Source of the DNA: an uncultured Methanomassiliicoccales archaeon
GTDB lineage: Archaea; Thermoplasmatota; Thermoplasmata; Methanomassiliicoccales; UBA472
Reading direction: 5' to 3'
Length of the DNA: 64,000 nt
Assembly: GCA_963732855.1 (NCBI GenBank)
Contig: CAVTBB010000003.1
Span: 285,790 to 349,789, forward strand
The notes under the pieces are model-generated. The model was not told the origin of the DNA and did no database searches. It saw only the letters and a list, made by a program, of their open reading frames with translations. Below, one piece after another: positions 1 through 54,936 of this stretch (position 1 is its first letter; every line of letters starts with the position of its first letter). The translations under genes and the position numbers were made by a program.

Positions 1-80
1 TCATCGACCGGGTTCTCATTGGTAGCGTCTCCGAATATGTGGTGCGCAACGCACGATGCACGGTCATCGTGGTTAGATGA
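1..80 (+). CDS. universal stress protein (UspA family), C-terminal fragment entering from the left edge
   Basis: Frame 3 reads IDRVLIGSVSEYVVRNARCTVIVVR* (stop at 78-80). This resembles the conserved C-terminal end of UspA-family proteins. It is too short for the ORF track. Confidence 0.5.
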   Translation, partial: IDRVLIGSVSEYVVRNARCTVIVVR

Positions 81-100
81 GCATCCGGACATAGGGGTCC

Positions 101-607
101 TTACAGATTCGATGAAAGGCCACTGGCCCCCTTCATTCTAGATTCCATCAGGTCCAGGGCCACCATGATTCCTTGGATTATAGCCTGTGGTCGCGGAGGA
201 CAGCCTGGGATGAAAACATCCACCGGGATGACCGAGCTGACCCCATGCGAACATGCATAGGTATCGGCGAAAAGACCTCCGCTGATGGCGCACACGCCCA
301 TCGCCACAACAATCTTCGGGGAAGGTGTGGCGTTATACGTCTGGAGAAGCGCGTGCTCCATGTTCCGAGTCACCGGACCGGTGACCAACAGCATGTCGGC
401 GAACCGGGGAGACGCAACGATGTGGACGCCGAACCGCTCGATGTCGTAGATGGAGTTGTTCAGCGCGTTCACTTCCACCTCGCATGCGTTGCAGGAACCG
501 GCATCGACCTCCCGGATGGCGAGCGATCGACCTAACATCTTCTTGATTTTCTCATCCAGCAACTGCCCTAGGACCTTGATTTCTTGATCACTGCGTTCTT
601 CGGTCAA
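101..607 (-). CDS. NuoB/HycG/EchC-type [4Fe-4S] small subunit of a group-4-hydrogenase-like membrane complex
   Basis: Corresponds to the C-terminal two thirds of ORF 101..877. Motifs CNAC, GVCAISGG and PGCPPRP match the CxxC / GxCxxxG / GCPP cluster ligands. The first ~90 aa of the tracked ORF are read-through across the upstream gene. The start is placed at TTG 607 (LTEERSDQEIKVLGQLLDEKIKK); the next ATG is at 538, so the start is uncertain. Confidence 0.85.
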   Translation of the reverse strand: MTEERSDQEIKVLGQLLDEKIKKMLGRSLAIREVDAGSCNACEVEVNALNNSIYDIERFGVHIVASPRFADMLLVTGPVTRNMEHALLQTYNATPSPKIVVAMGVCAISGGLFADTYACSHGVSSVIPVDVFIPGCPPRPQAIIQGIMVALDLMESRMKGASGLSSNL

Positions 608-926
608 TCCGGTACACCACCTTAAGATTCGCGCTGTCCTTAACGGCCAGCTCGAACTTCTTTGACATCTTGATCGCCTGTTCCGGGCAGTACCTGGCAC
701 ATTCCCCGCAGAATATGCATTTGCCCACGTCGATGGAGATCGTGCTGTACCCCTCATCGATCGCTCCAGTGGGGCACACCTCGACACAGGTCTTGTCCAT
801 CCGGCAAACGTTGACGTCGACCTCAGGCATACCCATATGACCGTCATATGGCTCGTAGGGTTGGTTCGGATAGTCAACCGTTACCACCCCCTTCTTCATC
901 ACTCCCTTGGTGTACCATTTGAACAT
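588..926 (-). CDS. 2x[4Fe-4S] ferredoxin-type subunit (HycF/NuoI-like)
   Basis: 112 aa. It has one canonical motif, CIFCGECARYCP, and one variant, CRMDKTCVEVCP (CxxDxxCxxxCP, with Asp where the second Cys normally sits). It lies between the large and small subunit genes. Confidence 0.85.
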   Translation of the reverse strand: MFKWYTKGVMKKGVVTVDYPNQPYEPYDGHMGMPEVDVNVCRMDKTCVEVCPTGAIDEGYSTISIDVGKCIFCGECARYCPEQAIKMSKKFELAVKDSANLKVVYRIDRRTQ

Positions 927-935
927 GTTCTTGCC

Positions 936-2522
936 TCACAGGTCGTTCCCAGCATAGGAGAGGCTGAGACTCTTGTTCACTAATGGGAAGTCGGGCACTA
1001 TGTTACCTAGGACCGCGAACTCAATCGCCAGCCAGTTACTGAAGGAGGGATCGCGAACCTTGTGACGGAACGGAACACCTTGCCCGGCCATGATCCAGTG
1101 CATCGCTTCGCCGCGGGGTGATTCCACCAGGCTCATCCCCACTTTCTTTTCCTGCACTTCTCCCATCTTCGCCGTGAGATCGGATCCCTTCATCGACTCC
1201 AGCGCCTGTTCGATGATGCTCACCGATTCGTAGATCTCTTCGATCCTGACCTTTGTCCTGGCCAGTATGTCCCCTTCCCTATAGACGGGGACATTGAAGC
1301 TCATCCGTTTATATGCCGCATAAGGATGGTCCCGCCTTACGTCCCTATCAACACCGCTCCCCCGGGCAGCTGGCCCGACCAGGTCCATGTTCTTTGCGAT
1401 GTCGAAGGTGATCGTCCCGGTAACCTCGACTCGGTCTATCAAGGATGGCATTTCGGTGATCATTTTGACCCATTCTGTAAGATCTAACTTCATCTTTACC
1501 ACGGTCGATTTGATCTTGACCGCCTGCTCCTTGTTGATGTCCTTACGCACGCCACCCAAGGTATTGACCGAACGGAGGAATCGGCTGCCGGTGAGCCAGT
1601 CATTGAGGTCCATCATGCGCTCTTTGAGCACGTAAGCCTGCTGTGCGCCGACGTTGAACGCCGTGTCTAACGCGATACCCCCAAGATCTCCGAGATGATT
1701 GTAGATGCGTTCCATTTCCAGCAACACAGTCCTGATGTTCTCTGCCCTCTCAGGGATCTGAACTTCGGCGATCGATTCTATAGCTTGACAATACGCGGTG
1801 GAATGCGCGAAGCCATTGTCCCCGGAGATCCGCTCGGCCAAGAAAACACCACGGCGGTAGGATGTCGATTCGGATAACTTCTCCACGCCGCGGTGGACGT
1901 AGCCCAACCGAATCTCAAGATTGATGATCGGTTCTCCCGCCACGCTGAAACGGAAATGCCCCGGTTCAATGACACCAGCATGGACCGGTCCGACAGGGAT
2001 CACGAACACCCCTTCACCCTCGACCGGACGGTATGAGTAATCGGTCTTTATACGCTCCACCTTGGACTCGATATCAAAGTCCTTACGGAGCGGATAATAG
2101 CCAAGAGGCCAGTCGTCCCATAGGACTAACGGTCTCGGATCCGGATGACCAACCGCGGTTATCCCGAACATGTCCATGATCTCCCGCTCATACCAATAGG
2201 CCGCGAAGACCTCGGATGTGAGAGTTCGATATGCCGGGAGTGAATCGTCTATTTTTGTGGCCAGCGTTAGGAAAAGGTCCTTCTTGGGCAGAGAGAAGAT
2301 GGTATAGTGGCAGAAGCTGGAACTGGATTCCCGTTCGTCAGTGGCATGTTCGGAGATTAGGGTCACATGGTACCGCCGATTCAGGTGAGCCACCATATCA
2401 GGAAGTGTGTCCTTGTTCAAATCGATGCGGAGGTTCCTGCCTTCGAATGACGTCGAGAGCACTCCGATGGCTATGTTAGGGGGCAGGTCCTCGAGTATCT
2501 CCATCAAGTACTCTTCGCTCAT
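936..2522 (-). CDS. fused NuoC/NuoD-like (HycE/HyfG-like) large subunit lacking the NiFe-binding cysteines
   Basis: 528 aa. GPVHAGVIEPGHFRF and RLGYVHRGVEKL are typical of group-4 large subunits. The N-terminal ligand motif reads RISGDNGFAHS where RxCGxCxxxH is expected. The C-terminus reads SLSLSYAGNDL* where DPCxxCxxR/H is expected. Confidence 0.85.
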   Translation of the reverse strand: MSEEYLMEILEDLPPNIAIGVLSTSFEGRNLRIDLNKDTLPDMVAHLNRRYHVTLISEHATDERESSSSFCHYTIFSLPKKDLFLTLATKIDDSLPAYRTLTSEVFAAYWYEREIMDMFGITAVGHPDPRPLVLWDDWPLGYYPLRKDFDIESKVERIKTDYSYRPVEGEGVFVIPVGPVHAGVIEPGHFRFSVAGEPIINLEIRLGYVHRGVEKLSESTSYRRGVFLAERISGDNGFAHSTAYCQAIESIAEVQIPERAENIRTVLLEMERIYNHLGDLGGIALDTAFNVGAQQAYVLKERMMDLNDWLTGSRFLRSVNTLGGVRKDINKEQAVKIKSTVVKMKLDLTEWVKMITEMPSLIDRVEVTGTITFDIAKNMDLVGPAARGSGVDRDVRRDHPYAAYKRMSFNVPVYREGDILARTKVRIEEIYESVSIIEQALESMKGSDLTAKMGEVQEKKVGMSLVESPRGEAMHWIMAGQGVPFRHKVRDPSFSNWLAIEFAVLGNIVPDFPLVNKSLSLSYAGNDL

Positions 2523-3904
2523 GGGAACACCTGGAACAAAGACGCGATACTGACTAACAGATCATTCAGTTGTGTCGGGATGAACACACCCATCACCAGA
2601 ATCATTACCAATAGTGCTCCCATGGGCAGGAAGCGGGAACGTTCCAGCTCGCCCTTGGACACGCCTTCCGTAGGCTCACCGAACATCATCTTGCTGACGT
2701 GGTACATGAACGCAGCGAATATCACCGCGAGCAAGAGGATATAGATGCCTACTGCTAGATAGTTGGCCGAAGAAAGGCCTCCAGTGAGTATCGTCACCTC
2801 GGAGAGGAATATGCTGAACGGCGGGGAGCCGGTGATCGCCAAGGCGCCCGCTATGAACAAAATAGCGGTCGTTGGCATCAAGGTCGCCACGCCCCTGATC
2901 TCGAGGATCTCCCGGGTCTTGAACTTCTGCAATAGGTTACCGGCACCCAGGAACATCAGGCACTTTGTGAGAGCGTGGTTCAGCATATGCAGCAGAGCAC
3001 CGAATATTCCCAGGAACCCGCCAATACCGAAACCGAACGCGATAATCCCCATGTGCTCGATTGACGAATAAGCAAGCAGCCGCTTGAAATCCCTGGCCAC
3101 AATGATGAAAGACGCCGCCACGGCCATTGATACCAGGCCGAATATCAGCAATAACATGGAGGAGAATCCGGGTACTGTCACGGAGGTTATCAGGTGGAAC
3201 CTTAGGATACCATACATTGCGCAATTCAGGAGCACCCCTGAAAGGAGGGCGCTAACCGGTGTCGGGGCTTGGGAGTGCGCGTCGGGTAGCCAGGTGTGCA
3301 TCGGCGCCAGCCCCACCTTAGTGCCGTAACCCACCATGATCAGGATGAATGATATTTTTAGAAGGGTGGGGTCCAGATGCGCGGCCTCCGCCATCAGCCT
3401 GGACCAGTTCAGCGCATCGGAGGACTCGCCCAGGGCTGCGATCGAAGAAGCGTAAGCGAGTATCGTGCCGAATAACGCTAGCGTTATTCCGACGGAGCAG
3501 ATTATCAGGTACTTCCATGCCGCCTCGACGGCCAGGTCGTTCTCGGTGAAACCGACCAGGAAGGCGGACGCGAGCGTGGTCGCCTCGATGGCGATCCACA
3601 TGATTCCCAGGTTATTGCTGACGACCACCATCAGCATGGTGAACATGAAAATGTGGAACAGGATGTAATAATATTTGGCCCGCTCCATCGACAGCTCCCT
3701 TTCCTTGAGCTCATGACCGATGTATGGAATCGAATAGATAGCCGCCATCATGCCGATGAAGATGATGATGAAAAGCATGTAAGCGCTCAGAGAGTCCAGG
3801 TACCAGATTCCATATTCGATGTTGCCGTTAGTGATCACATCGTAGACCATGTAGCACCCGATTGCGAATAGTGCCACAATACCGGTGGTGGAGGCTACCT
3901 CCAT
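2519..3904 (-). CDS. NuoN/NuoM/HyfF-like antiporter-type membrane subunit (N-terminal helix apparently displaced by a frameshift; see findings)
   Basis: 461 aa polytopic protein with Mrp/NuoN-type motifs (WLPDAHSQAPTPVSALLSG, AYSSIEHMG). Its stop overlaps the start of the large subunit gene. Confidence 0.85.
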   Translation of the reverse strand: MEVASTTGIVALFAIGCYMVYDVITNGNIEYGIWYLDSLSAYMLFIIIFIGMMAAIYSIPYIGHELKERELSMERAKYYYILFHIFMFTMLMVVVSNNLGIMWIAIEATTLASAFLVGFTENDLAVEAAWKYLIICSVGITLALFGTILAYASSIAALGESSDALNWSRLMAEAAHLDPTLLKISFILIMVGYGTKVGLAPMHTWLPDAHSQAPTPVSALLSGVLLNCAMYGILRFHLITSVTVPGFSSMLLLIFGLVSMAVAASFIIVARDFKRLLAYSSIEHMGIIAFGFGIGGFLGIFGALLHMLNHALTKCLMFLGAGNLLQKFKTREILEIRGVATLMPTTAILFIAGALAITGSPPFSIFLSEVTILTGGLSSANYLAVGIYILLLAVIFAAFMYHVSKMMFGEPTEGVSKGELERSRFLPMGALLVMILVMGVFIPTQLNDLLVSIASLFQVFP

Positions 3905-3979
3905 CTGACGGCGGGACTTGGTCGAAAAAAATTAGGAACGCGGTCACGATTGGGATCGCTATCATCAGTTCAAGCATCA

Positions 3980-4639
3980 TCAGTCTCTCAGCCTCCGCAT
4001 GAATGTAGTGTCGACCGTCTCGAAAGTATGGTTGATCTTGAAGGCGAAGATCCCCATGATTATTGCGGCGACCAGTACATCAAAGAAAATGCCGATCTCG
4101 ACGATCATCGGCATGCCATACGTCAACGATATTGCTGCCAGGAATAAACCGTTCTCCATCATCAGGAGCCCTACGATCTCGGTCATCGCCTTGCGTCGGG
4201 CGATGATGACGAAGAACCCGATCAGAACCACCGCCAACGAAATTGCTAGACAGTTCTTTGTGATCACGCTTCCCTGGGCAATGATGGGAGATGCAATATA
4301 ATACGCGACGAAGGTAAGCGCACCGCATATCAGGAGAGACCCTGGTATGCTGACCAATGGCTCTACCTCCTTCTTGACCTTGAGGCGGTCCACCGTATAG
4401 TTCAGGAACCTAGGGATGACAATGACCTTCAACACGATTGTCATGATGGCGACGAAATAGATGTGGTCCGCCTTCGTATAATAGGCGACCGCGGCCGCCA
4501 GCAACCCGAGCGCCAAGGAACCGAGGGTATACGCCCGGATGATCTGAGGCATCCTTACCCCTGCCACTAGAACGAATGCGAACAGGAGGATAAGTGCTGC
4601 CAGCCCATTTATCACGTCGGTTAGGATAATGTCGCTCAT
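3980..4639 (-). CDS. HyfE-like small membrane subunit (NuoK-related)
   Basis: 219 aa and very hydrophobic. It occupies the position that hyfE holds in hyf operons. Confidence 0.65.
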   Translation of the reverse strand: MSDIILTDVINGLAALILLFAFVLVAGVRMPQIIRAYTLGSLALGLLAAAVAYYTKADHIYFVAIMTIVLKVIVIPRFLNYTVDRLKVKKEVEPLVSIPGSLLICGALTFVAYYIASPIIAQGSVITKNCLAISLAVVLIGFFVIIARRKAMTEIVGLLMMENGLFLAAISLTYGMPMIVEIGIFFDVLVAAIIMGIFAFKINHTFETVDTTFMRRLRD

Positions 4640-4649
4640 TTTGTACGCC

Positions 4650-5600
4650 TCATAGGATATAGAATGACATCACCGCCAGCAGGGCCAGAGTGAAAGATAC
4701 GGTCAACAGGTTGGGCAGCCGGAACAACCGAAGCTTCGATATGGACGACTCGATAATTGCGATGACCAGTGCCAGGAACAATACCTTGACCATGATCGCG
4801 ATGAGCCCGCCCCCGATGCTTAGCACCGACAGGTCATTCGCTATTCCCCAGGGGAAGAACACATTTGACAATATCGAGAAGTACAGGACCAGCCGAGTCA
4901 TGCTAGACAGTTCCATTAACCCCAGTTTCTTGCCTGAGTACTCTAGGATCATGCCCTCGTGGATCATCGTGAGCTCCAGGTGAGTGGTCGGGTTGTCTAC
5001 CGGAACCCGCGCATTCTCAGCGATCGTGGAGATCATGAAAGCGGCGGAAGCCAGGAATAGGGCAGGTCGCACCAGGTCGATACCCGAGATGGAGAGGGCG
5101 CTGGCAATCGTCCCCAGGCTGGTCGTTCCTGTGATTAGGCCCATGGAGAAGATTGAAAGCAGCATCGTAGGTTCGACGATCGACGCTACCATCATTTCCC
5201 TGCTGGAGCCCATGCCTCCGAAGGCGCTACCGGCGTCCAACGCCGCCAACGCGGTGAAGAAGCGAATGGTGCCCAACAAATAGACCACAACAATGAGGTC
5301 ACCGACGAAACCGAGCGTCCTGGTGACGAACACCGGCACGAGGAGCGCGGCGATCAGCACCATGGCCATGGAGATGTATGGTGTGACAGAGAATATCCAT
5401 GAGGCCTCACTTGAAACGACGGAATCCTTGTGGAAATACTTGGCTATATCATGGTAGGGCTGGAATATGCTTGCACCCCGCCTCGATTGCATATACGCCT
5501 TAATCTTCCGGATGATTCCTGTGACCAGTGGCGCTATCGCCAGCAGGAACAGGGCCTGCAGGACGCTCAGCACGATGTCGAAGTATATCTGGTCCATCAT
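4650..5600 (-). CDS. NuoH/HycD/HyfC-like membrane subunit
   Basis: 316 aa polytopic protein with NuoH-type features (RRGASIFQPYHDIAKYF, LTMIHEGMILEYSG). Confidence 0.85.
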   Translation of the reverse strand: MMDQIYFDIVLSVLQALFLLAIAPLVTGIIRKIKAYMQSRRGASIFQPYHDIAKYFHKDSVVSSEASWIFSVTPYISMAMVLIAALLVPVFVTRTLGFVGDLIVVVYLLGTIRFFTALAALDAGSAFGGMGSSREMMVASIVEPTMLLSIFSMGLITGTTSLGTIASALSISGIDLVRPALFLASAAFMISTIAENARVPVDNPTTHLELTMIHEGMILEYSGKKLGLMELSSMTRLVLYFSILSNVFFPWGIANDLSVLSIGGGLIAIMVKVLFLALVIAIIESSISKLRLFRLPNLLTVSFTLALLAVMSFYIL

Positions 5601-5601
5601 A

Positions 5602-7620
5602 TCACCTGAATATGATCAGCAAGAACACGAGCGTCACGAAGATGTAGGCCAAATAGGCCTGGATGCTGCCCGCCTGGATCTTGCTGACCCGGTGCGCCAG
5701 GCTGACCATGGCGGCCACGATCGGACGGTACAAGTATATTTCGAACACTGGCACGACGGTGAAGGCGTATGACACCTTCTTCTTCACATAAGGTGAGGTT
5801 GTCGATTCGGTCCTGACCTCCGGCTTGGGCCGATAGATGTAATTGAAAACTTTGACCAGAGGATTGGAATAAGCGGCCCCGGTATATTGGTTCCGGGCGG
5901 TTAGCGGGGTCCCGCAATCCCATGTGTCACCTACCACGGTCTTACGCTTTCCCCCATAGCGCCTCGTGATCACAATGACCAGAGGAACCATTGTGGCGAT
6001 TAGAATCGCCAATATGAACGGTGACATGGTCGAGAACTGGTCGTTGGTCGGGCTAATGACGAACCCGTTAACGATGGAGGAGGCCGCCGAAGCCCCTACA
6101 AGGGGAGCGGTTACTTCGTCCACATATGGTATGATCGCGAAGGACAAGACGCCCGTGACGATGCACATGAAGGCCGCCATCCCAGAACCGACGAGCATGG
6201 ACCGAGGTACTTCTTTGGCGTGTTCGGCGTGCTCACTGCGGGGCTTTGCCAAGAACACAATACCGAAAAGTCTCACGAAACAAACCGCAGCCAGTGCGCC
6301 GGTCAATGCCAATATCGCAATTGCCACCGGCAGCAGTATCTTGACCGTCATGTCCGGTATCTGGAACGATTGCAGCAGCGACTGGAAGATCAGCCATTCG
6401 CTGACGAAACCATTGAACGGCGGTATGGCCGAGATGGACAGGGCACCGATGAAGAATATGATCCCGGTCCATTTCATTCTCTTGGCCAGCCCCCCGAGCT
6501 TCTCCATATCCTTGGTGTGAGTGGCGAATAGAATTGACCCCGCACCCATGAAGAGAGCTCCCTTGAAGAAAGCGTGATTCATTACATGGAGCAGTGTAGC
6601 GATGAGGGCTAGACCGGCAAGCAGGTTCAGGTTATATGACTGGAAGACCATCGCCGCGCCGAGTCCGATAAGGATGATCCCCACATTCTCGACCGTGGAG
6701 TATGCCAGTACTCTCTTGATATCGGTCTCCATCAATGCGTACATCACACCGAGTAGCGCGGAGATCGAGGCCACCAGCAATACCAGCAGACCCCACCAGG
6801 TATCGGTGACGCCGAGAAAATCAAAGAAAGTACGGATCATCATGAACACGGCGGTCTTGACCATGACACCTGACATGAGTGCCGAGACGTTCGAGGGCGC
6901 GGCGGGATGGGCATAGGGTAGCCATACGTGCAACGGAATAATTCCGGCCTTGGTCCCGAAACCGATGAAGAGCAGTACGAACAACGTGCTCTTGAGGGCG
7001 CTCGGCATCGTTGCCCCTACCCCCGAGAACGCGGAGAAATCGAACGAATGGGCGTATATCCCCATCATGACCAGCGCAACCATGATCAGTGCTGTGCCCA
7101 GGTGGGTCATGACCACGTAGAGGAGACCAGAGGAAGGGATTCCTTCCTTCCGGTTCTCATACACAACCAGAAGATATGATGTCAATGACATCGCCTCCCA
7201 GACGACCAGGAAGAATATGGCGTTACTGGCCGAGACGACAAAGGCCATGGAAAGCAGGAACAGGTTGAATAGCAGGCCGAGCAGGCCGATACTGTACTTG
7301 CCGTCATATTCTTTCGAGTACCCTATCGAGTAGATCGAAACGGCGAACGACACCATCGAAATGACCAGGAGGAAGAATGCGCTCAAGCGGTCCAGGGCGA
7401 AACCGAACTGCCCAAAGGGAGTTTCAAATGGTAACTGGAGGTTCATCGGTGAGCCGGTCAGAACCAAGATAGCTGTTATCGTCCCGAAGATGGCGGACAG
7501 CGCCGCGGCACCAAAAGATACGGAGGCACAAGTCCTCTCCCATTGTCTGAGGGCAACGGCGGAGACTGCTCCAACGATACCTGTTACTGTAAGCAGAATA
7601 AAGAACAGATCAGCGTCCAA
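5602..7620 (-). CDS. NuoL/HycC/HyfB-like antiporter-type membrane subunit
   Basis: 672 aa. Carries the NuoL/Mrp motifs WLPYAHPAAPSNVSALMSG and AYSTVENVG. It is the first gene of the 7-gene block. Confidence 0.85.
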   Translation of the reverse strand: MDADLFFILLTVTGIVGAVSAVALRQWERTCASVSFGAAALSAIFGTITAILVLTGSPMNLQLPFETPFGQFGFALDRLSAFFLLVISMVSFAVSIYSIGYSKEYDGKYSIGLLGLLFNLFLLSMAFVVSASNAIFFLVVWEAMSLTSYLLVVYENRKEGIPSSGLLYVVMTHLGTALIMVALVMMGIYAHSFDFSAFSGVGATMPSALKSTLFVLLFIGFGTKAGIIPLHVWLPYAHPAAPSNVSALMSGVMVKTAVFMMIRTFFDFLGVTDTWWGLLVLLVASISALLGVMYALMETDIKRVLAYSTVENVGIILIGLGAAMVFQSYNLNLLAGLALIATLLHVMNHAFFKGALFMGAGSILFATHTKDMEKLGGLAKRMKWTGIIFFIGALSISAIPPFNGFVSEWLIFQSLLQSFQIPDMTVKILLPVAIAILALTGALAAVCFVRLFGIVFLAKPRSEHAEHAKEVPRSMLVGSGMAAFMCIVTGVLSFAIIPYVDEVTAPLVGASAASSIVNGFVISPTNDQFSTMSPFILAILIATMVPLVIVITRRYGGKRKTVVGDTWDCGTPLTARNQYTGAAYSNPLVKVFNYIYRPKPEVRTESTTSPYVKKKVSYAFTVVPVFEIYLYRPIVAAMVSLAHRVSKIQAGSIQAYLAYIFVTLVFLLIIFR

Positions 7621-7794
7621 AGGATGTCCCCCGTGCTCTTGTCACGATCTTTCGCGGCGCATCCAACGTCCCATTGAAGTTCGTACTCGTTGTGAAGACC
7701 TTCTGTGTTTTGTTGGCAAATCAATACTTGCCTTTAACCTTTCGTCATGAACGGCCCAGGTCGTCCATCCGCTAATGGGTATCCTCCAATACCA

Positions 7795-9786
7795 CTAAGG
7801 GTCGGGATCAGCCCGTTTTCTTCCCGCGGAGAAGAACCTCATGGCCATGCCCACGGCCATTAGGCCGGCCCCGGTCCACAGGAAGGACATCAAAGGTATA
7901 ATTTTCAACTGGATGTTGGCGGTGGAGTTGTCGACCCAATCATATGTGATGTAGACATCCTCCATTGCCGCGCTGTAGACGAAAACCATGACATCGACCT
8001 TGCCCAGGTCTCCGAAAAGGGATAGATACATGGCCTTGAGGGCGATGCCGCCCTGTATCAGTTGCCCGTTGTGGTATAGATCGACGGTCGCCTGCCGCAG
8101 CTGATCGTACCGTTCCCCTGCGACGTTGGTCACGTTGATGATGCTCACTTCCTTCACCGTGATCGAATATCCATCCACGCCCACCGTCCCTCCGATCGGC
8201 ACCTTGTTGTACTCTCCCGAGGCTGGGAAAGCCTGGGCATTAGTGGAGACAACAAACGCCAGAAACATCAATGCCACCCCAAAGTGCATGACCTGGGGAC
8301 CTGCCCGGAACAGAGTCTTGCGGAGGGAACAAATCACCCGGGAACGGATTATCAGCTCCACCGAGATCATGATGGAGACGATCGCCGGAGGGACGACCAG
8401 GCCGATCTCCAGACTCGAACCGAGCAACGACATGACAGCGCCCAGTCCGATCGAAGAGGCGACCAGGCCAATAGCCAGCCATGTCATCCACTTGCCCTTG
8501 ACCCATTTGTAGACCAGGCAAAGAGACATGGCGATCAGTATGGCGGCGACGAAGAAGGACATCTTCTGGTTGAACTCCACGAAGTTCGCTGTCATACTGA
8601 GGTCCACGTTCTTGACCATGATGAGCAGGATGACCGCCGCGGCCAGAACCATGATGACAACGGCCATGGTCATCAAGGATCGATCGGTGAAGAGATCGCC
8701 TTCGTCCTCTGTTGACTTGGGAGCTGAACGGTAGTTCCGGTAAAGATAAAACATTCCCAACAGGAAGATCGCCATCAGCACGATGAAAGAGACCGCGACG
8801 ACTGCGTCCTTCTGCAGCGCCCTTGACAGCCGGTCCGGCGCCGATTCCAGGGCACCCGTCCCGAAAGAATGCACCGATGCCGCCCATATCCCACCCGCCC
8901 GGGTGATGAAGGTCACGAGCAGGGCGGATGAGAACGTTATCATGGCCATAGGCGCAGCGACCATCCGAAATTGCTTTCCTCGCATGTTACGCAGAAGCAC
9001 ATGTACCAGAGCGGTCGAGAGCACCCATGCGAGCAGCGAAGATGTCTCCACCGGGTCCCACCCCCAATATCCCCCCCATCCGATGACGTAATAAGCCCAA
9101 ACCGCCCCAATGACTATTCCAAGGGTCAATAGAAGCCACGCCGGCCTTGCCCAGAAGAGCCCGGTCTCAGCCCATCCCTCTTCCTTGTTCAGTTGACCGG
9201 AGAAGGCCGAAGCGAACACCATCATGAGCAAGGCATAAGCAGCAAAGACCAAGATCGGGTGCACAGCCATCTCCGGGGTCTGGAGCGACAACTCCATGCC
9301 CTGGCCGTCGGGATATAAGGAAACAAGGGTCGGATCGCTTGGTGCGAAGATGTTCACGGTCAGAAGAACGATGGCAAAAATGGCGGTCACTGACACCGCG
9401 ATCAGTCTGAGCCGGGCATGGAATACCGTGTTTGCCAAATTCGCGCGTCTTTCTCTGAACAGTTCCAGCGCCGTGACCAAGGACATCAGCCAGACGAGCA
9501 GCACAAAGGAACCTGGCGGGCCAGCCCATATCCCTGAGATCTTGTAAACGATATCGAGATCTTTTGAAGAGTTGGTCCACACGTAGGAAAGGGAGGTATC
9601 GGTCACTAAGAAGGAATAAAGGAGGTAAAGAAGGGACAGGCTCATTGCGGAGAAGGAGAGAAGCATGGCCAGGTCGAATACCCTGTCCAGCTTGTGCTGT
9701 TTGAGATAAGTGCTGGCAAACCCGCACAGGGCTGAAACGGCCATTAATATCGCCCCTATGACCAAAAGTACGTCTCCGATCCCCAT
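7795..9786 (-). CDS. ccmF: cytochrome c-type biogenesis protein CcmF (heme lyase component)
   Basis: Polytopic protein with the Trp-rich motif WGGYWGWDPVETSSLLAW. The start is placed at MGIGDVLLVIG (9786), which is preceded by GGGAG. The tracked ORF extends to 9819. Confidence 0.85.
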   Translation of the reverse strand: MGIGDVLLVIGAILMAVSALCGFASTYLKQHKLDRVFDLAMLLSFSAMSLSLLYLLYSFLVTDTSLSYVWTNSSKDLDIVYKISGIWAGPPGSFVLLVWLMSLVTALELFRERRANLANTVFHARLRLIAVSVTAIFAIVLLTVNIFAPSDPTLVSLYPDGQGMELSLQTPEMAVHPILVFAAYALLMMVFASAFSGQLNKEEGWAETGLFWARPAWLLLTLGIVIGAVWAYYVIGWGGYWGWDPVETSSLLAWVLSTALVHVLLRNMRGKQFRMVAAPMAMITFSSALLVTFITRAGGIWAASVHSFGTGALESAPDRLSRALQKDAVVAVSFIVLMAIFLLGMFYLYRNYRSAPKSTEDEGDLFTDRSLMTMAVVIMVLAAAVILLIMVKNVDLSMTANFVEFNQKMSFFVAAILIAMSLCLVYKWVKGKWMTWLAIGLVASSIGLGAVMSLLGSSLEIGLVVPPAIVSIMISVELIIRSRVICSLRKTLFRAGPQVMHFGVALMFLAFVVSTNAQAFPASGEYNKVPIGGTVGVDGYSITVKEVSIINVTNVAGERYDQLRQATVDLYHNGQLIQGGIALKAMYLSLFGDLGKVDVMVFVYSAAMEDVYITYDWVDNSTANIQLKIIPLMSFLWTGAGLMAVGMAMRFFSAGRKRADPDP

Positions 9787-9827
9787 TTTATTCTCCCGCC
9801 TCTGGCTAGATGATAGCACCTATCAAA

Positions 9828-11169: not shown

Positions 11170-11589
11170 TCAATACTTCGACGCGCATCCCACGGTGACC
11201 GCGTCGGCATATAGGGCCACAGGCAGCCCGGATGATATCGCGCCTTTCACAACCACCTCTTTACCGTTCTCGAAACCCGAGGGCAATGTCCCTTTCATGA
11301 CGACGACGATCGTATCGTTCAGATTCGTCCGGTCTGTTAGCGTGAAATTGCCTGACCCGAACCAGTTATTTACTTTACCCTGGACCTCGAGATACTTTCC
11401 GACGTAATTTGATGTGCCAGTGCCAATGGCAGCGGAGTCGTTCGAGATCGGTGTCACCTCTAGGAAGGTCTTTCCTGTTGTATCCCAGCCCCAGAAGATT
11501 ATGACCAGGGCTAAGGCGATTACGACGAAGGCAATCAGGAGGTGCTTCCGTTTGCGGGGCATGCCTTTCTTCTTCGGTTCATTTTCCAT
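11170..11589 (-). CDS. ccmE: heme chaperone CcmE, Cys variant (CxxxY)
   Basis: 139 aa with an N-terminal TM anchor. The OB-fold pattern is YLEVQGKV...FTLTD...IVVVMKGTLPSGFENGKEVVVKG. The C-terminus ends GCASKY*, giving CxxxY in place of the usual HxxxY. Confidence 0.8.
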   Translation of the reverse strand: MENEPKKKGMPRKRKHLLIAFVVIALALVIIFWGWDTTGKTFLEVTPISNDSAAIGTGTSNYVGKYLEVQGKVNNWFGSGNFTLTDRTNLNDTIVVVMKGTLPSGFENGKEVVVKGAISSGLPVALYADAVTVGCASKY

Positions 11590-11728
11590 CTTGCTTGGAC
11601 CTCTGCTTCAGCTCCGCCAGTTCCCTTCTGAGGGCGCACTGTTTTCGATCGATGTAGAACAGATACAGGAACAGGCCCACCCACACCAATGAATAGGCTA
11701 CATAAACCGGAACCATCTCGTTGGCCAT
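11579..11728 (-). CDS. ccmD: CcmD-like small membrane protein (below the ORF-track size cutoff)
   Basis: 49 aa: MANEMVPVYVAYSLVWVGLFLYLFYIDRKQCALRRELAELKQRSKQDGK*. It has a single TM segment and a basic tail. Its ATG overlaps the ccmC stop (TGATG), and its stop overlaps the ccmE start. Confidence 0.6.
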   Translation of the reverse strand: MANEMVPVYVAYSLVWVGLFLYLFYIDRKQCALRRELAELKQRSKQDGK

Positions 11729-12801: not shown

Positions 12802-12802
12802 C

Positions 12803-14193: not shown

Positions 14194-14428
14194 TTGTGGC
14201 TGCCGCTCCTTGGGAAGTCCTTATCGCACCATATCTGTTATCAATTCTTTTATGACAACGAAGATCCGATCATCGATTTGATGACTCCCCGCGTGATCCG
14301 TCATGAAACAGGCATAGCCCGATTTGTCCGTTCTCCAATATTTCAGTCACATTAGAATCTATGTTTCTCGGCTGGCCCTGTATTCATATCGGGCTCCTAG
14401 GCAAAGGCATATTAAAGATGGAGCTCAA

Positions 14429-15136: not shown

Positions 15137-15149
15137 GATACGAGGTGAC

Positions 15150-17192: not shown

Positions 17193-17193
17193 T

Positions 17194-17892: not shown

Positions 17893-17944
17893 ATGCCATG
17901 CACACCACCCGAGCCGAGTACAACACCAAGGGAGGTGCTTTGAA

Positions 17945-19556: not shown

Positions 19557-19597
19557 CGCGGAAACCCTTTCCTGGTCTTATTTTTCAATACCCAATT

Positions 19598-21090: not shown

Positions 21091-21256
21091 AGGAACCTTT
21101 GGTCCCACCGCCCGAGGCGAAGCCACATGACTCTTAACAAGGTATAGGGGACGGTCCGTCAGCAGATTTTTATATCCGTCCTCCATGCTTACTCCAACCT
21201 ACCAACGGCTATCGGCTCTCTTATCTGATACCGCCCGGTGTTCAAGAGGTATTTGA

Positions 21257-22492
21257 ATGGTCAAGTTACCAAAAAGCCTTGAAAGAGATATGGCTGCATG
21301 CCTTCAGTGCGGATACTGCGTCCAGGTCTGCGATACTTATAATCAGAACCGCTGGGAGTCGAACTCCCCTAGGGGCAAGGTCTTCTACCTGAGCGCGCTA
21401 GCCAAGAGGAACGCTCTGGACACCTTGTTGGGGAGGAAGATCAAATTGGACCAGGAGTTCATCGACGCGCTGTATCAATGCACTGGATGCGCCAGATGCC
21501 ATACGGTCTGTCACGTCAGCATCGAGTTCGCCGAGTTCTGGGAAGTGGTAAGGGAGTGGGCCCACGAGCAGGGCTATGGACCTTTGCCGGCGCATGTCAA
21601 GATCCGGGAGAGACTGGAAGAGAAACGTAACCCGTACGATGAACCGATGGAGAAGCGCGGAGCATGGTTCCCCAAGGAGATACCACGATCGCCGCAGCCT
21701 GACATATTGTTCTTTGCTGGATGCACCGCATCGTACCGGACACCACATCTCGCCAAGGCAGGGGTCACCGTTCTGAGTCGAGGAGGCGCCACCATCAATA
21801 TCTTGGGAGAAGACGAATGGTGTTGCACGTCACCGGCGCTCAGGACCGGACAGACCAAGCTCACCGCCGAGTTCGCTGAGCATACTATCACCCACGTTGA
21901 GACCATGGGTGCCAAGTCAATGGTCATGACCTGCGCCGGATGCTACAAGACCTCCTCCCACGACTACGGCAAGTACTACTCTAACCCAGCATTCGTTGTG
22001 CAGCACTTTTCGCAGGCTGCCGAGAAGATGATCAAGGACAAGAAGCTCAAGTTCACCAAGGAGATCAATGCAAAGGTCACCTACCACGATCCGTGCCACC
22101 TGGGACGCCACGCTCAGGTGTTCGACGCGCCGCGAGAATGCATAAAGGCGATCCCGGGCGTCACACTGGTGGAGATGAAGCACACCCGAATGGACTCCCG
22201 ATGCTGCGGCGCCGGAGGCGGCTACAAATCGGCCTTTAACGAGATGGCGGTAAACATTGCGGCTGAGAGGGTCAAAGAGGCCGTCGAAACCGGAGCTGAC
22301 ATCCTGGCAACAGCTTGCCCCTTCTGCGTGGTCAATCTACAGCAGGGCGCTAAGAAGATCGGCGCCAAGATCAAGGTTATGGACATCTCGGAGATGATGT
22401 TGGAAGCCACTGAGCCTTTGCCGCCTGCTCCTGCCGAGGCACCTGTTGCCCCTGCACCAGCAACTCCCGCCGCAACAGACGAGAAAAAGTAA
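21257..22492 (+). CDS. HdrD/GlpC-family Fe-S oxidoreductase (2x[4Fe-4S] ferredoxin domain plus two CCG domains)
   Basis: Fe-S motifs CLQCGYCVQVCD and CTGCARCHTVCHV. CCG-type motifs FFAGCTASY, WCCTSP, YHDPCHLGRH, RCCGAGGG and ACPFC. Confidence 0.75.
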   Translation: MVKLPKSLERDMAACLQCGYCVQVCDTYNQNRWESNSPRGKVFYLSALAKRNALDTLLGRKIKLDQEFIDALYQCTGCARCHTVCHVSIEFAEFWEVVREWAHEQGYGPLPAHVKIRERLEEKRNPYDEPMEKRGAWFPKEIPRSPQPDILFFAGCTASYRTPHLAKAGVTVLSRGGATINILGEDEWCCTSPALRTGQTKLTAEFAEHTITHVETMGAKSMVMTCAGCYKTSSHDYGKYYSNPAFVVQHFSQAAEKMIKDKKLKFTKEINAKVTYHDPCHLGRHAQVFDAPRECIKAIPGVTLVEMKHTRMDSRCCGAGGGYKSAFNEMAVNIAAERVKEAVETGADILATACPFCVVNLQQGAKKIGAKIKVMDISEMMLEATEPLPPAPAEAPVAPAPATPAATDEKK

Positions 22493-38241: not shown

Positions 38242-38250
38242 GGTGCTCAA

Positions 38251-52461: not shown

Positions 52462-54936
<2,475 letters not shown>

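What the first reader, a model, noticed from the sequence alone, without database searches (positions are those of the whole stretch)
101..7620. hyf/hyc-type seven-gene membrane complex whose 'hydrogenase' large subunit has no NiFe ligands (Ehr-like)
The gene order matches hydrogenase-4/formate-hydrogenlyase-type operons: NuoL-like, NuoH-like, HyfE-like, NuoN-like, fused NuoCD-like, 2x[4Fe-4S] ferredoxin, then NuoB-like.

Evidence that the NiFe site is lost:
- The N-terminal ligand motif reads ERISGDNGFAHS where hydrogenases have RxCGxCxxxH.
- The C-terminus reads KSLSLSYAGNDL* where they have DPCxxCxxR/H.
- All four active-site cysteines are therefore absent.

Other subunits:
- The small subunit keeps the complete CxxC / GxCxxxG / GCPP cluster site.
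- The ferredoxin subunit has one CxxDxxCxxxCP motif, with Asp in place of a Cys ligand.

No hyp or hycI maturation genes and no formate dehydrogenase are present in the window. The complex therefore resembles the energy-converting-hydrogenase-related (Ehr) class, which sits between group-4 hydrogenases and complex I and has unknown substrates. It lies directly downstream of ccmF on the same strand, with a 175-bp gap.
Basis: partly seen in the sequence, partly recalled or inferred. Interest (0 to 1): 0.65.

Follow-up and report, generated by a model that had tools for sequence, protein, structure and literature searches.

The report
Hydrogenase-like membrane complex without nickel site
This is a seven-gene membrane complex that descends from a hydrogen-producing enzyme but has lost the metal site that handles hydrogen; it belongs to a widespread, already named class (Ehr) whose real job is still unknown.

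Summary
Window 101-7620 (minus strand) encodes seven co-linear genes. Each one best matches its positional E. coli Hyf/Hyc counterpart rather than the Nuo counterpart: HyfB, HyfC/HycD, HyfE, HyfF, HyfG/HycE, HyfH/HycF, HyfI.

The 528-aa fused NuoC/D-like large subunit has only two cysteines, C71 and C245. Neither sits at a [NiFe] ligand position: CGxC has become SGDN, and DPCxxC has become SLSYAG.

The small subunit keeps its four cluster cysteines. Both antiporter-like subunits keep their charged transmembrane residues. All seven genes are under strong purifying selection (dN/dS 0.02-0.24).

The Ehr reading is supported. The protein sits in a large Cys-less clade next to group-4f hydrogenases. 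That clade is found in Nitrospira, ammonia-oxidising archaea, CPR bacteria, Acidobacteria and Methanomassiliicoccales, the taxa in which the literature already reports Ehr.

Corrections:
- The ccmF adjacency is strain-specific; two close relatives lack ccm genes here.
- The Cys-to-Asp change in the ferredoxin subunit is restricted to this lineage.
- Gene D carries a 1-nt 5' frameshift relative to its relatives.

It is most likely a ferredoxin-linked, ion-translocating oxidoreductase with an unidentified non-H2 partner. It is a new member of a known kind, of modest interest.

The parts
5602..7620 (-). ehrA: HyfB/NuoL-like antiporter-type membrane subunit, 672 aa (TTG start)
   Evidence: Pfam Proton_antipo_M 9e-54. 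NCBIfam 'hydrogenase 4 subunit B' scores 726.7 bits, above its 667 cut-off. It is 40% identical to E. coli HyfB, which is also 672 aa. The charged TM residues E142, K224, K255 and E408 are kept.
4650..5600 (-). ehrB: HyfC/HycD/NuoH-like membrane subunit, 316 aa
   Evidence: Pfam NADHdh 1e-44. It is 34% identical to HycD and 24% to NuoH. It carries the loop DNPTTHLELTMIHEGMILEYSG, which is the signature of the whole 4f+Ehr clade and differs from AEAEQEL in HycD/NuoH.
3980..4639 (-). ehrC: HyfE-like membrane subunit, 219 aa (NuoK-like C-terminal half)
   Evidence: NCBIfam 'hydrogenase 4 membrane subunit' 2e-32, below its cut-off. Pfam Oxidored_q2 is weak. It is 24% identical to HyfE over its full length.
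2519..3904 (-). ehrD: HyfF/NuoN-like antiporter-type subunit, 461 aa as read. The ancestral start lies at about 3981, and a 1-nt insertion near 3929 puts the first ~25 codons out of frame.
   Evidence: Pfam Proton_antipo_M 4.5e-55. It is 47% identical to HyfF. E107, K196, N227 (as in HyfF) and E369 are kept. The frameshift is seen relative to L001 and L002.
936..2522 (-). ehrL: fused NuoC/NuoD-like 'large subunit', 528 aa, without [NiFe] ligands (S233, N236, S522, G525)
   Evidence: Supported. The AF2 model has pLDDT 88.9, and its best structural match is HycE 7Z0S_E at TM 0.93. dN/dS is 0.023-0.040.
588..926 (-). ehrF: HycF/HyfH/NuoI-like 2x[4Fe-4S] ferredoxin subunit, 112 aa. The first motif is CxxDxxCxxxCP.
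   Evidence: Pfam Fer4 hits and the alignment to HycF/HyfH/NuoI. The Asp is present only in the window, L001 and L002.
101..607 (-). ehrS: HyfI/HycG/NuoB-like small subunit, 168 aa, with four Cys for the proximal [4Fe-4S] cluster (hydrogenase-type CxxC)
   Evidence: Pfam Oxidored_q6 9e-33. It is 45% identical to HyfI. The start was chosen by analogy with the gene called in L001.
7621..7848 (.). Upstream non-coding region shared with the ccm-less relative L001. It presumably carries the operon's own promoter.
   Evidence: The blastn alignment of the window to L001 runs uninterrupted from 1 to 7848 and breaks exactly where ccmF begins. Promoter function is inferred and was not tested.
3..80 (+). 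3' end of a convergent universal-stress-protein (Usp) gene that closes the cluster. It is cut by the window edge.
   Evidence: Pfam Usp 2.3e-7 on the 25-aa tail. The full gene is present in L001. A Usp gene flanks the cluster in M. luminyensis, PtaU1.Bin124, L090 and Methanocella, and is co-directional and overlapping in ANME-2.
21257..22492 (+). HdrD-like Fe-S/CCG-domain protein, 411 aa. It is a syntenic neighbour and its membership of the system is only a hypothesis.
   Evidence: Pfam CCG x2 plus Fer4_8. The order Lhr, HdrD-like, rubrerythrin, Ehr is conserved in six Methanomassiliicoccales genomes.

Best explanation
The locus encodes an Ehr-type complex (energy-converting-hydrogenase-related). 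It is a seven-subunit membrane enzyme that descends from a group-4f, Hyf-like [NiFe]-hydrogenase and has lost the [NiFe] site, while keeping the iron-sulfur wire and the ion-translocating membrane arm.

Shown here:
- the subunit set and gene order;
- absence of all four metal-ligand cysteines;
- retention of the proximal-cluster ligands, of seven of the eight cysteine ligands in the ferredoxin subunit (the eighth position is Asp), and of the Glu/Lys residues of both antiporter-like subunits;
- strong purifying selection;
- membership of a large Cys-less clade.

Inferred:
- A low-potential soluble carrier, most likely ferredoxin, exchanges electrons with the HycF-like subunit. The reason is that no HycB/HyfA-type docking subunit and no dehydrogenase partner is encoded.
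- Electrons pass to the proximal [4Fe-4S] cluster of the small subunit. From there they reach an acceptor other than H+ that binds in the remodelled pocket (S233-G-D235-N236, D286, S522-Y-A-G525-N-D527) at the junction of the large, small and NuoH-like subunits.
- The redox step drives H+ or Na+ export through the NuoH-like, HyfE-like, HyfB-like and HyfF-like subunits. Run in reverse, the ion gradient would drive ferredoxin reduction.

The acceptor is not identified. It is not H2/H+ at a NiFe site, and it is not a quinone bound in the complex I manner.

The confidence of 0.6 is for the whole statement. By layer it is about 0.9 for the identity, about 0.6 for redox-driven ion pumping, and well under 0.2 for any named acceptor.
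For: Subunit identities: Pfam and NCBIfam, and best BLASTP hits to the positional Hyf/Hyc subunits.

Ligand loss: HMMER alignment to HycE 7Z0S_E and MbhL 6CFW_L. The only Cys are C71 and C245.

Family:
- All 120 closest database homologues are Cys-less, with a conserved C-terminus NKS[FL][NS]LSY[SA]GNDL.
- The ERISGD motif is invariant in the 14- and 72-sequence alignments of those homologues.
- A scan of one genome per species found at least 600 loci.
- Among 81 usable loci, 72 are Cys-less and 9 are Cys-bearing 4f-like.
- The two groups differ systematically at 233 (S/C), 522 (S/C), 525 (G/C) and 286 (D/G), and more weakly at 180 (V/I). At 235 the Cys-less group has D against A/V, and at 236 it is variable against C.
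- The NJ tree places the window protein in an archaeal subclade of the Cys-less clade. HycE/HyfG lie outside and NuoCD is the outgroup.

Electron wire: the small-subunit Cys and ferredoxin motifs align with HycG/HycF.

Pump: TM5 Glu, TM7 Lys, TM8 Lys/Asn and TM12 Glu are conserved exactly as in HyfB/HyfF. The coupling loop of the NuoH-like subunit is nearly invariant across the clade.

Selection: dN/dS is 0.02-0.24 for all seven genes against L001 and L002.

Self-contained module: no conserved redox-partner gene was found in the flanks of the 81 fetched loci.

Fold: AF2 pLDDT 88.9, best match HycE at TM 0.93, then NuoCD at about 0.85.

Literature:
- Ehr is defined as hydrogenase-related complexes lacking the catalytic-centre ligands (PMC4758237, PMC6349859).
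- Ehr is close to group 4f (PMC10284858).
- Ehr is present in Methanomassiliicoccales (PMC6147122), AOA (PMC10432482) and CPR bacteria (PMC7304191).
- The Geobacter Ehr has NuoL-like, HyfE-like, large and small subunits (PMC7894505).
Against: - No Ehr complex has been characterised biochemically. No solved structure closer than HycE (34% identity) turned up in the PDB searches. The electron donor, the acceptor and the direction are therefore all inferred.
- Many family members lack the ferredoxin subunit: gene orders ABCDE-G and G-ABCDE occur. Entry through that subunit cannot be universal.
- The family occurs both in organisms expected to have quinones and in groups that to my knowledge lack them (Acetobacterium, Patescibacteria). 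This argues against any single obvious acceptor.
- In this window gene D has a 5' frameshift relative to its relatives. If the frameshift is real, it removes about 25 N-terminal residues.
- I could not compare the protein directly with Geobacter EhrL.
Confidence: 0.6

Rival explanations
1. It is a working Hyf-type (group 4a/4f) [NiFe]-hydrogenase or formate hydrogenlyase that makes H2.
For: The gene order and the best hits match HyfBCEFGHI. Subunit A passes the NCBIfam 'hydrogenase 4 subunit B' cut-off. The proton-relay Glu186 and Arg470 are retained.
Against: - All four Ni/Fe cysteine ligands are replaced (S, N, S, G), and the protein has only two cysteines, located elsewhere.
- There is no HyfA/HycB subunit.
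- There is no FDH, hyp or hycI gene in 64 kb.
- True Cys-bearing relatives exist in the same clade and look different at exactly these positions.
Confidence: 0.02
2. It is a decaying relic: a hydrogenase operon that lost its function and is drifting.
For: The catalytic ligands are lost. Gene D has a 1-nt frameshift near its 5' end.
Against: - dN/dS is 0.02-0.24 in all seven genes, and lowest in the large subunit.
- The replacement residues S233, G234, S522 and G525 are invariant or nearly so, and D235 is kept in 67 of 72 Cys-less sequences from many phyla.
- The Fe-S ligands and pump residues are intact.
Confidence: 0.03
3. It is a small complex-I/Fpo-like enzyme that passes electrons from ferredoxin to a membrane-soluble carrier (a quinone- or methanophenazine-like lipid).
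For: It shares a NuoH-like subunit and a NuoB/NuoD-like module with complex I. Borrel et al. note genes for a liposoluble carrier in Methanomassiliicoccales (PMC4153887). Many carriers of the family are respiring bacteria.
Against: - The quinone head-group ligands of complex I are absent. Position 185 is Ile (His38 in T. thermophilus Nqo4, His in E. coli NuoCD). Position 234 is Gly (Tyr87, Tyr in E. coli NuoCD).
- The small subunit has the hydrogenase CxxC, not the NuoB CC motif.
- The family also occurs in Acetobacterium and Patescibacteria, which to my knowledge lack quinones.
Confidence: 0.12
4. In Methanomassiliicoccales the complex works with the neighbouring HdrD-like protein as an ion-pumping ferredoxin:heterodisulfide (or other disulfide) oxidoreductase.
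For: An HdrD-like CCG protein and rubrerythrin lie divergently upstream of the cluster in six Methanomassiliicoccales genomes whose large subunits are 55-98% identical to the window's. In M. luminyensis this neighbour is probably hdrD1 of Borrel et al. (accession three below ehrA). Membranes of M. luminyensis show ferredoxin:heterodisulfide activity, which is assigned to Fpo-like/HdrD by inference only (10.1101/2024.03.29.587405).
Against: - The synteny may simply be inherited.
- MFS and ccm genes have been inserted between the two in some strains.
- HdrD is not a neighbour outside this order.
- hdrD1 also exists in 'Ca. M. alvus' and 'Ca. M. intestinalis'. Whether those genomes carry Ehr was not tested.
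Confidence: 0.1
5. It runs in reverse, using the ion gradient to push electrons from a higher-potential donor onto ferredoxin for biosynthesis (an Eha/Ehb-like anaplerotic role without H2).
For: The family is common in aerobic or microaerobic autotrophs that need reduced ferredoxin, such as Nitrospira and ammonia-oxidising archaea. Group-4 enzymes are reversible (established for Ech and Eha/Ehb; my own knowledge).
Against: The donor is as unknown as the acceptor in the forward model. There is no supporting gene linkage.
Confidence: 0.15
6. It is a redox-independent Mrp-like cation/proton antiporter, and the peripheral module is only structural.
For: It has two antiporter-like subunits with intact charged residues. 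Seven group-4f-related genes are strongly induced by acid stress in a Methylocystis strain (10.1101/2025.08.29.672306). A Usp gene is a conserved neighbour in archaea.
Against: The four Cys of the proximal cluster and the ferredoxin motifs are conserved under purifying selection. That is hard to explain without electron transfer.
Confidence: 0.05

Closest known systems
Ehr complexes (Ech/energy-converting-hydrogenase-related; Coppi 2005; Marreiros et al. 2013). Examples: Geobacter sulfurreducens GSU0739-45, comammox Nitrospira, ammonia-oxidising archaea, CPR bacteria, the Methanomassiliicoccales 'MALP' genome, M. tuberculosis Rv0082-87.
   Same: - It is a multi-subunit cluster with NuoL-like, NuoH-like, HyfE-like, NuoN-like, large and small subunits.
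- The large subunit lacks both CxxC motifs.
- Its position is next to group 4f.
- Loci from Nitrospira, Nitrososphaeria and Patescibacteria fall in the same Cys-less clade as the window protein (PMC10284858, PMC10432482, PMC7304191, PMC6147122, PMC7894505).
   Different: - This version keeps a HycF-like ferredoxin subunit, which many bacterial and thaumarchaeal Ehr clusters lack.
- In this narrow lineage the ferredoxin subunit has Asp in place of one Cys ligand.
Group 4f [NiFe]-hydrogenases (HydDB 'Ehf', uncharacterised). In this work these are the Cys-bearing loci L005, L009, L017, L026, L031, L052, L066, L069 and L081.
   Same: - The gene order is the same (A-B-C-D-E-F-G).
- They share the clade-specific motifs PVGP[VI]HAG[IV]IEPGHFRF, NKSF.L.Y..DR/L and DNPxTHLELTMxHE in the NuoH-like subunit.
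- They are 41-45% identical in the large subunit.
   Different: They keep RxCG[AV]C and LCY[AS]C. The window protein has S233, D235, N236, S522 and G525, plus D286 where they have Gly.
E. coli hydrogenase 4 (HyfA-J) and hydrogenase 3 / formate hydrogenlyase (HycB-G, PDB 7Z0S)
   Same: - It is co-linear with hyfB, C, E, F, G, H and I.
- It has a fused NuoC/D-type large subunit.
- The best structural match is HycE at TM 0.93.
- HyfB has the identical length of 672 aa.
   Different: - There is no HyfA/HycB, HyfD, HyfJ/HycH, HycI, FdhF or FocB.
- There are no NiFe ligands.
- The C-terminal tails of the small and ferredoxin subunits are missing.
- The NuoH-like loop differs.
MBS/MBX of Pyrococcus furiosus (PDB 6U8Y)
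   Same: It offers the same evolutionary logic: a group-4 hydrogenase descendant that no longer makes H2 but keeps the Fe-S wire and ion pumping. It is therefore a useful functional analogy.
   Different: - The relationship is remote: MbsL E=3.9e-36 against HycE 2.8e-94.
- MBS has a 13-subunit Mrp-type membrane arm, not a 4-subunit Hyf-type arm.
- No sulfur-metabolism genes are linked here.
Respiratory complex I / Fpo (NuoB, CD, H, L, M, N)
   Same: The large, small, NuoH-like and antiporter-like subunits are homologous, and the antiporter Glu/Lys residues are conserved.
   Different: - There are seven genes, not 11-14.
- There is no NuoA/J or N-module.
- The His/Tyr quinone ligands are absent.
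- It has CxxC instead of CC in the small subunit.
- Sequence identity is lower, at 25% to NuoCD.
Hyq cluster of Azorhizobium/Rhizobium (hyqRBCEFGI)
   Same: The B-C-E-F-G-I gene order is the same, and it is reported to lack canonical Ni-Fe ligands (PMC4758237).
   Different: It was not compared here by sequence. It has no H-type ferredoxin gene and was proposed to react with quinone.

Membership tests
Ehr (energy-converting hydrogenase-related complex) | Gene cluster encoding homologues of the group-4 hydrogenase large and small subunits together with NuoH-like and antiporter-like membrane subunits | tested here: met
   Pfam and NCBIfam domains and E. coli best hits for all seven genes.
Ehr (energy-converting hydrogenase-related complex) | Large subunit lacks the cysteine ligands of the [NiFe] centre (both CxxC motifs) | tested here: met
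   C to S233, N236, S522 and G525 in alignments to HycE, HyfG and 4f relatives. The only Cys are C71 and C245.
Ehr (energy-converting hydrogenase-related complex) | Groups with sequences that the literature calls Ehr (next to group 4f; Nitrospira, AOA, CPR, Methanomassiliicoccales) | tested here: met
   The NJ tree puts the window protein in the Cys-less clade with loci from Nitrospira (L018, L022), Nitrososphaeria (L012, L015, L038, L051) and Patescibacteria (L019, L041, L048, L074). The labels come from PMC10284858, PMC10432482, PMC7304191 and PMC6147122. The tree is distance-based and has no bootstrap.
Ehr (energy-converting hydrogenase-related complex) | Orthology to the founding example, Geobacter sulfurreducens EhrL (GSU0739-45) | not tested
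Only the subunit list (NuoL-like, HyfE-like, large, small) matches (PMC7894505).
Group 4a/4f [NiFe]-hydrogenase (Hyf/Hyc, formate hydrogenlyase) | N-terminal RxCGxCxxxH and C-terminal (D/E)(P/L)CxxCxx(H/R) metal-binding motifs | tested here: not met
   The window has ERISGDNGFAHS and SLSYAGNDL.
Group 4a/4f [NiFe]-hydrogenase (Hyf/Hyc, formate hydrogenlyase) | Co-linearity with, and closest similarity to, Hyf/Hyc subunits | tested here: met
   The best hit of each product is its positional Hyf/Hyc counterpart. The best structural match is HycE.
Group 4a/4f [NiFe]-hydrogenase (Hyf/Hyc, formate hydrogenlyase) | Electron-input partner (HycB/HyfA plus FdhF) and maturation genes (hypA-F, hycI) | tested here: not met
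   None was found among about 55 ORFs of the 64-kb window or in the 10-kb flanks of relative L001. The rest of the genome could not be searched.
Respiratory complex I / F420H2 dehydrogenase (Nuo/Fpo) | 11-14 subunits including NuoA, J, K and three antiporter-like subunits at one locus | tested here: not met
   There are seven genes and two antiporter-like subunits. The cluster is bounded by its own upstream region and a convergent Usp gene.
Respiratory complex I / F420H2 dehydrogenase (Nuo/Fpo) | Quinone head-group ligands in NuoD (His38 and Tyr87, T. thermophilus numbering) and tandem-Cys N2 motif in NuoB | tested here: not met
   Ile185 and Gly234 align with His and Tyr of Nqo4 and E. coli NuoCD. 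The small subunit has CNAC where NuoB has CC.
MBS/MBX (membrane-bound sulfane reductase) | 13-gene cluster with Mrp-type membrane subunits, and close similarity to MbsL | tested here: not met
   The locus has seven Hyf-type genes. MbsL (6U8Y_L) matches only at E=3.9e-36, far behind HycE.

The most novel reading that the evidence does not exclude
In Methanomassiliicoccales, the Ehr complex may be the membrane partner of HdrD1, either instead of or in addition to the Fpo-like complex. HdrD1 is the CCG-domain protein that stays next to the Ehr cluster in six genomes of the order. Together they would form an ion-pumping ferredoxin:heterodisulfide (or other disulfide) oxidoreductase. The conserved Ser-Gly-Asp ... 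Ser-Tyr-x-Gly pocket would then be a new, metal-free or non-Ni catalytic or coupling site.
Probability: 0.1. Interest if true: 0.7.

Novelty: new member of a known kind. Interest (0 to 1): 0.3.

Why it matters
Ehr complexes are one of the most widespread members of the complex I / group-4 hydrogenase superfamily that still have no known reaction. They occur in nitrifiers, acidobacteria, mycobacteria, CPR bacteria, methanogens and Asgard archaea.

This locus adds no new kind of system. It is a clean example in a methanogen-related lineage that has a cultured relative carrying an orthologue (M. luminyensis WP_019178463-69, 57% identity).

Two things from this work could help design experiments:
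- The Cys-less clade differs systematically from true group-4f hydrogenases at the former ligand positions (233, 236, 522, 525), at two neighbouring residues (D235, D286) and more weakly at V180.
- Within the order, the cluster keeps an HdrD-like neighbour.

If the acceptor were found, it would fill a gap in the energy budgets drawn for many uncultured organisms.

Tried and rejected
- My first literature search with 'Ehr' was swamped by electronic-health-record and Ehrlichia papers. Narrower searches worked.
- Marreiros et al. 2013 is not held. Its content is cited through papers that quote it, plus my own memory of the abstract.
- An exact look-up of the window's large subunit found no recorded gene. 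The 98% relative P0002 gave the flanks instead.
- I looked for a conserved redox partner by clustering 742 flanking ORFs from the 81 fetched loci. Only regulators (sigma-54 type, ArsR type), an ABC ATPase, GGDEF, Usp and an acetate-channel-like protein recur. No dehydrogenase recurs.
- I suspected that the AIRS-domain gene at 26954-28117 was HypE. NCBIfam says it is PurM.
- I looked for c-type cytochromes to go with the ccm genes. No CxxCH-rich protein is in the window.
- I asked whether the altered NuoH-like loop (THLEL in place of EAEQEL) was specific to the Cys-less state. It is shared with the Cys-bearing 4f relatives, so it says nothing about the lost site.
- I asked whether the ferredoxin Asp was a family trait. 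It is not.
- The structure model gives no coordinates, so the pocket geometry could not be measured. The β1-β2 loop (180-193) and the C-terminus (525-528) are modelled with low confidence in the monomer.

Full report
**What is in the sequence.** On the minus strand of window 101-7620 there are seven tightly packed ORFs.
- A: 7620-5602, 672 aa
- B: 5600-4650, 316 aa
- C: 4639-3980, 219 aa
- D: 3904-2519, 461 aa
- E: 2522-936, 528 aa
- F: 926-588, 112 aa
- G: about 607-101, 168 aa

Pfam assigns them as follows, with E-values down to 1e-55.
- A and D: Proton_antipo_M
- B: NADHdh
- C: a weak NuoK-type match
- E: Complex1_30kDa plus Complex1_49kDa, with a short NiFeSe_Hases match
- F: two Fer4 motifs
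- G: Oxidored_q6

I fetched the E. coli hyf, hyc and nuo operons and compared them by BLASTP. Every product hits its positional Hyf/Hyc counterpart best: HyfB 40%, HycD 34%, HyfE 24%, HyfF 47%, HycE 35%, HycF 36%, HyfI 45%. The Nuo homologues always score lower. Subunit A even passes the NCBIfam equivalog cut-off for 'hydrogenase 4 subunit B'. No curated model accepts the large subunit.

**The metal site.** HMMER against all PDB chains gives these matches.

| Chain | Protein | E-value |
|---|---|---|
| 7Z0S_E | HycE of the solved formate hydrogenlyase | 2.8e-94 |
| 2FUG_4 | T. thermophilus Nqo4 | 1.6e-52 |
| 6CFW_L | MbhL | 6e-52 |
| 6U8Y_L | MbsL | 3.9e-36 |

In the HycE alignment, 'drvCgiCgfahstay' pairs with 'eriSgdNgfahstay', and 'sldpCysC' pairs with 'slslSyaG'. 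The whole protein contains only two cysteines, C71 and C245, so the ligands are not hiding elsewhere. The protein ends (…GNDL) at the position where HycE is cut during maturation, so no HycI-type protease is needed.

The small subunit keeps all four cysteines of the proximal [4Fe-4S] cluster. It has the hydrogenase arrangement (CNAC … GVC … GCPP), not the tandem CC of NuoB. The ferredoxin subunit has CRMDKTCVEVCP, with Asp in place of the second Cys, and a complete CIFCGECARYCP.

Pfam and NCBIfam scans of about 55 ORFs covering the 64 kb found no hyp, hycI or formate dehydrogenase gene. The single AIRS-domain protein is PurM. All parts of the observation are confirmed.

**Where the cluster ends, and what the ccmF neighbour means.** The window starts only 100 nt past gene G. 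I therefore fetched the locus from a 2.55-Mb genome whose large subunit is 98% identical (GCA_942492955.1, L001). There the cluster also has exactly seven genes. It is followed by a convergent Usp gene, whose last 25 codons are visible at window 3-80.

Aligning the window to L001 (91.6% nt identity) shows two blocks present only in the window. One is 7849-9827, which is exactly ccmF. The other is 11197-20392, which holds ccmE, ccmC, ccmB, ccmA and several Big_7 or membrane proteins. A second relative (L002, 90% aa identity) lacks the ccm genes and also the MFS gene.

The 228 nt upstream of gene A are shared with the ccm-less relative. The operon therefore most likely has its own promoter, and the ccmF adjacency is a strain-level accident. 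CcmF homologues at 74-80% identity exist in other Methanomassiliicoccales MAGs.

**The family.** The 120 best database homologues (51-100% identity) all end in NKS[FL][NS]LSY[SA]GNDL, and none has the cysteine motifs. ERISGD is invariant in the 14- and 72-sequence alignments of these homologues. The named ones are from Methanomassiliicoccales (including M. luminyensis at 57%), Methanocella arvoryzae, ANME-2 and Lokiarchaeia.

The taxa include Acidobacteria, Nitrospirota, Nitrososphaeria, Rokubacteria, Chloroflexota, Patescibacteria, Firmicutes and Methanosarcina.

Of the 81 large subunits I could read, 72 are Cys-less (E[RS][IV]SGD… and …LSY[SA]G.D.). Nine keep RICG[AV]C and …LCY[AS]C.DR, as expected for group-4f hydrogenases.

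Positions that systematically separate the two groups are listed below.

| Position | Cys-less clade | Cys-bearing 4f-like |
|---|---|---|
| 233 | S | C |
| 235 | D | A or V |
| 236 | variable polar | C |
| 286 | D | G |
| 522 | S | C |
| 525 | G | C |
| 180 (weaker) | V | I |

In a Kimura-distance NJ tree, NuoCD is the outgroup and HycE/HyfG form one branch. The 4f-like and Cys-less sequences form the other branch. The window protein lies there in an archaeal subclade with Methanocella, Methanomassiliicoccus, Lokiarchaeia and ANME-2. The tree has no support values.

An exhaustive HMMER search of 1.84 billion cluster representatives gives 1,167 clusters at E<=1e-30. The top 150 show the same mixture of Cys-less and Cys-bearing sequences.

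Gene order is A-B-C-D-E-F-G, A-B-C-D-E-G or G-A-B-C-D-E.

**Is it alive?** The evidence below indicates a functional protein complex, not a relic.
- Against L001 and L002, dN/dS is 0.02-0.24 for all seven genes, and lowest for the large subunit and subunit C.
- Both antiporter-like subunits retain the canonical TM5 Glu, TM7 Lys, TM8 Lys (Asn in D, as in HyfF) and TM12 Glu: A has E142/K224/K255/E408, and D has E107/K196/N227/E369.
- The cytoplasmic loop of the NuoH-like subunit (DNPxTHLELTMIHE) is almost invariant in the whole 4f+Ehr clade and differs from AEAEQEL of HycD/NuoH.
- The AlphaFold model (pLDDT 88.9, pTM 0.92) superposes on HycE with TM 0.93 and on E. coli NuoCD with about 0.85. No closer solved structure turned up in the PDB searches.

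One caveat applies. The window has a 1-nt insertion near 3929 compared with L001 and L002. It throws the first ~25 codons of gene D out of frame, and translation can restart at ATG 3904. This may be an assembly error.

**How it most likely works.** The following is shown by sequence: an intact Fe-S wire (F, then G), an intact Hyf-type ion-translocating arm (B, C, A, D), and a remodelled polar pocket where NiFe used to sit.

The rest is inferred.
- There is no HycB/HyfA docking subunit. No dehydrogenase gene is conserved beside the cluster in the 81 fetched loci. The redox partner on the cytoplasmic side is therefore most likely a soluble low-potential carrier such as ferredoxin, as for Ech and Mbh (my own knowledge).
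- The acceptor cannot be H+ at a NiFe centre.
- It is also unlikely to be a quinone bound as in complex I. The two head-group ligands are Ile185 and Gly234 here. The family also occurs in Acetobacterium and Patescibacteria, which to my knowledge lack quinones.

I therefore favour a ferredoxin-linked, reversible, ion-translocating oxidoreductase with a still unknown small acceptor that reacts at or near the proximal cluster. MBS of Pyrococcus is the precedent for such a change of chemistry.

My confidence differs by layer.
- Identity (an Ehr-class descendant of a 4f hydrogenase that lacks NiFe and is functional): about 0.9.
- Redox-driven ion pumping: about 0.6.
- Any particular acceptor: well under 0.2.

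**Context clues in the order.** In six Methanomassiliicoccales genomes the arrangement is conserved: Lhr helicase, HdrD-like CCG protein, rubrerythrin, (MFS), Ehr x7, convergent Usp. The six are the window, L001, L002, M. luminyensis, PtaU1.Bin124 and L090.

The M. luminyensis cluster is WP_019178463 to WP_019178469. Its HdrD-like neighbour is probably the hdrD1 (WP_019178460) listed by Borrel et al.. This leaves open that Ehr, and not only the Fpo-like complex, partners with HdrD. The synteny could equally be inherited, and it does not extend outside the order.

Other archaeal contexts are as follows.
- In Methanocella the cluster sits between frh genes and fdhC-fdhAB, and its F and G genes are fused.
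- In ANME-2 a Usp gene overlaps the end of G on the same strand.
- In Methanomassiliicoccus an Ech operon follows.

**Comparison with what is known.** The literature already names this class Ehr.
- It is defined by the absent NiFe ligands (PMC4758237, PMC6349859).
- It is placed next to group 4f (PMC10284858).
- It is reported in ammonia-oxidising archaea (PMC10432482), CPR bacteria (PMC7304191), M. tuberculosis Rv0082-87 (PMC6728331), Geobacter (PMC7894505) and a Methanomassiliicoccales genome (PMC6147122).
- All of these papers state that the function is unknown.

The finding is sound but ordinary for a specialist. Its value lies in the still open question of what Ehr does, not in this locus.

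Noticed in passing
window 7795-9819 (ccmF), 11170-14193 (ccmE, ccmC, ccmB, ccmA) and 14324-19738 (Big_7 and unknown membrane proteins): A cytochrome c maturation system (System I) is present in a Methanomassiliicoccales genome, an order usually described as lacking cytochromes. Its CcmE ends in the archaeal-type CxxxY motif (…VGCASKY). The genes form two blocks that are absent from relatives L001 (91.6% nt identity) and L002. No CxxCH-rich cytochrome is encoded in the window. CcmF homologues at 74-80% identity exist in other Methanomassiliicoccales MAGs.
   Followed up: partly
window ~3929 (5' end of gene D, 3904-3981): There is a 1-nt insertion relative to L001 and L002 (TTTTTTTCGACC against CTTTTTC-ACC). 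It puts the first ~25 codons of the HyfF-like gene out of frame. It is either an assembly error or a real N-terminal truncation.
   Followed up: partly
window 20266-22492, with L001, L002, L085, L086 and L090: An HdrD-like CCG/Fe-S protein and a rubrerythrin are conserved divergent neighbours of the Ehr cluster throughout Methanomassiliicoccales. In M. luminyensis the HdrD-like gene is probably the published hdrD1.
   Followed up: partly
window 3-80 (+), with L001, L085-L087, L089 and L090: A universal stress protein gene sits directly after the small-subunit gene in archaeal relatives. It is convergent in Methanomassiliicoccales and Methanocella, and co-directional and overlapping in ANME-2.
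   Followed up: partly
window 588-926 (ferredoxin subunit): The CxxDxxCxxxCP motif, with Asp in place of a Cys ligand, occurs only in the window, L001 and L002. Other family members keep four Cys. This may indicate an Asp-ligated [4Fe-4S] cluster or a [3Fe-4S] cluster, as in Pyrococcus ferredoxin.
   Followed up: partly
window 936-2522, residue C245 (AYCQA): A cysteine twelve residues after the lost first ligand is conserved in 60 of 72 Cys-less sequences and in 4 of 9 4f-like sequences. HycE/HyfG have Thr and NuoCD has Val at this position. Its role is unknown.
   Followed up: no
window 48297-52451 and 52462-54894: Both the gyrA and gyrB genes contain inteins. The gyrA intein carries a LAGLIDADG homing-endonuclease domain.
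   Followed up: no
L085 13195-18348, L090 13426-18458 and L003 9524-14103: In Methanomassiliicoccus genomes a six-gene Ech-type hydrogenase operon lies immediately after the Ehr-Usp unit. The Cys-less complex and a presumably true group-4 enzyme are therefore neighbours there.
   Followed up: no
L087 (Methanocella arvoryzae) 979-4357 and 13486-17756: The Ehr cluster, with fused ferredoxin and small subunits, is flanked by the F420-reducing hydrogenase genes (frhADGB) and by a formate transporter plus F420-dependent formate dehydrogenase. This echoes the formate links proposed for Ehr in Geobacter and Margulisbacteria.
   Followed up: no
window 31707-33647, 35487-40894 and 47436-48137: The window holds KaiC-like ATPases and a set of type IV pilus / archaellum-like secretion genes (two T2SSE ATPases and two T2SSF membrane proteins). 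These are unrelated to the finding.
   Followed up: no
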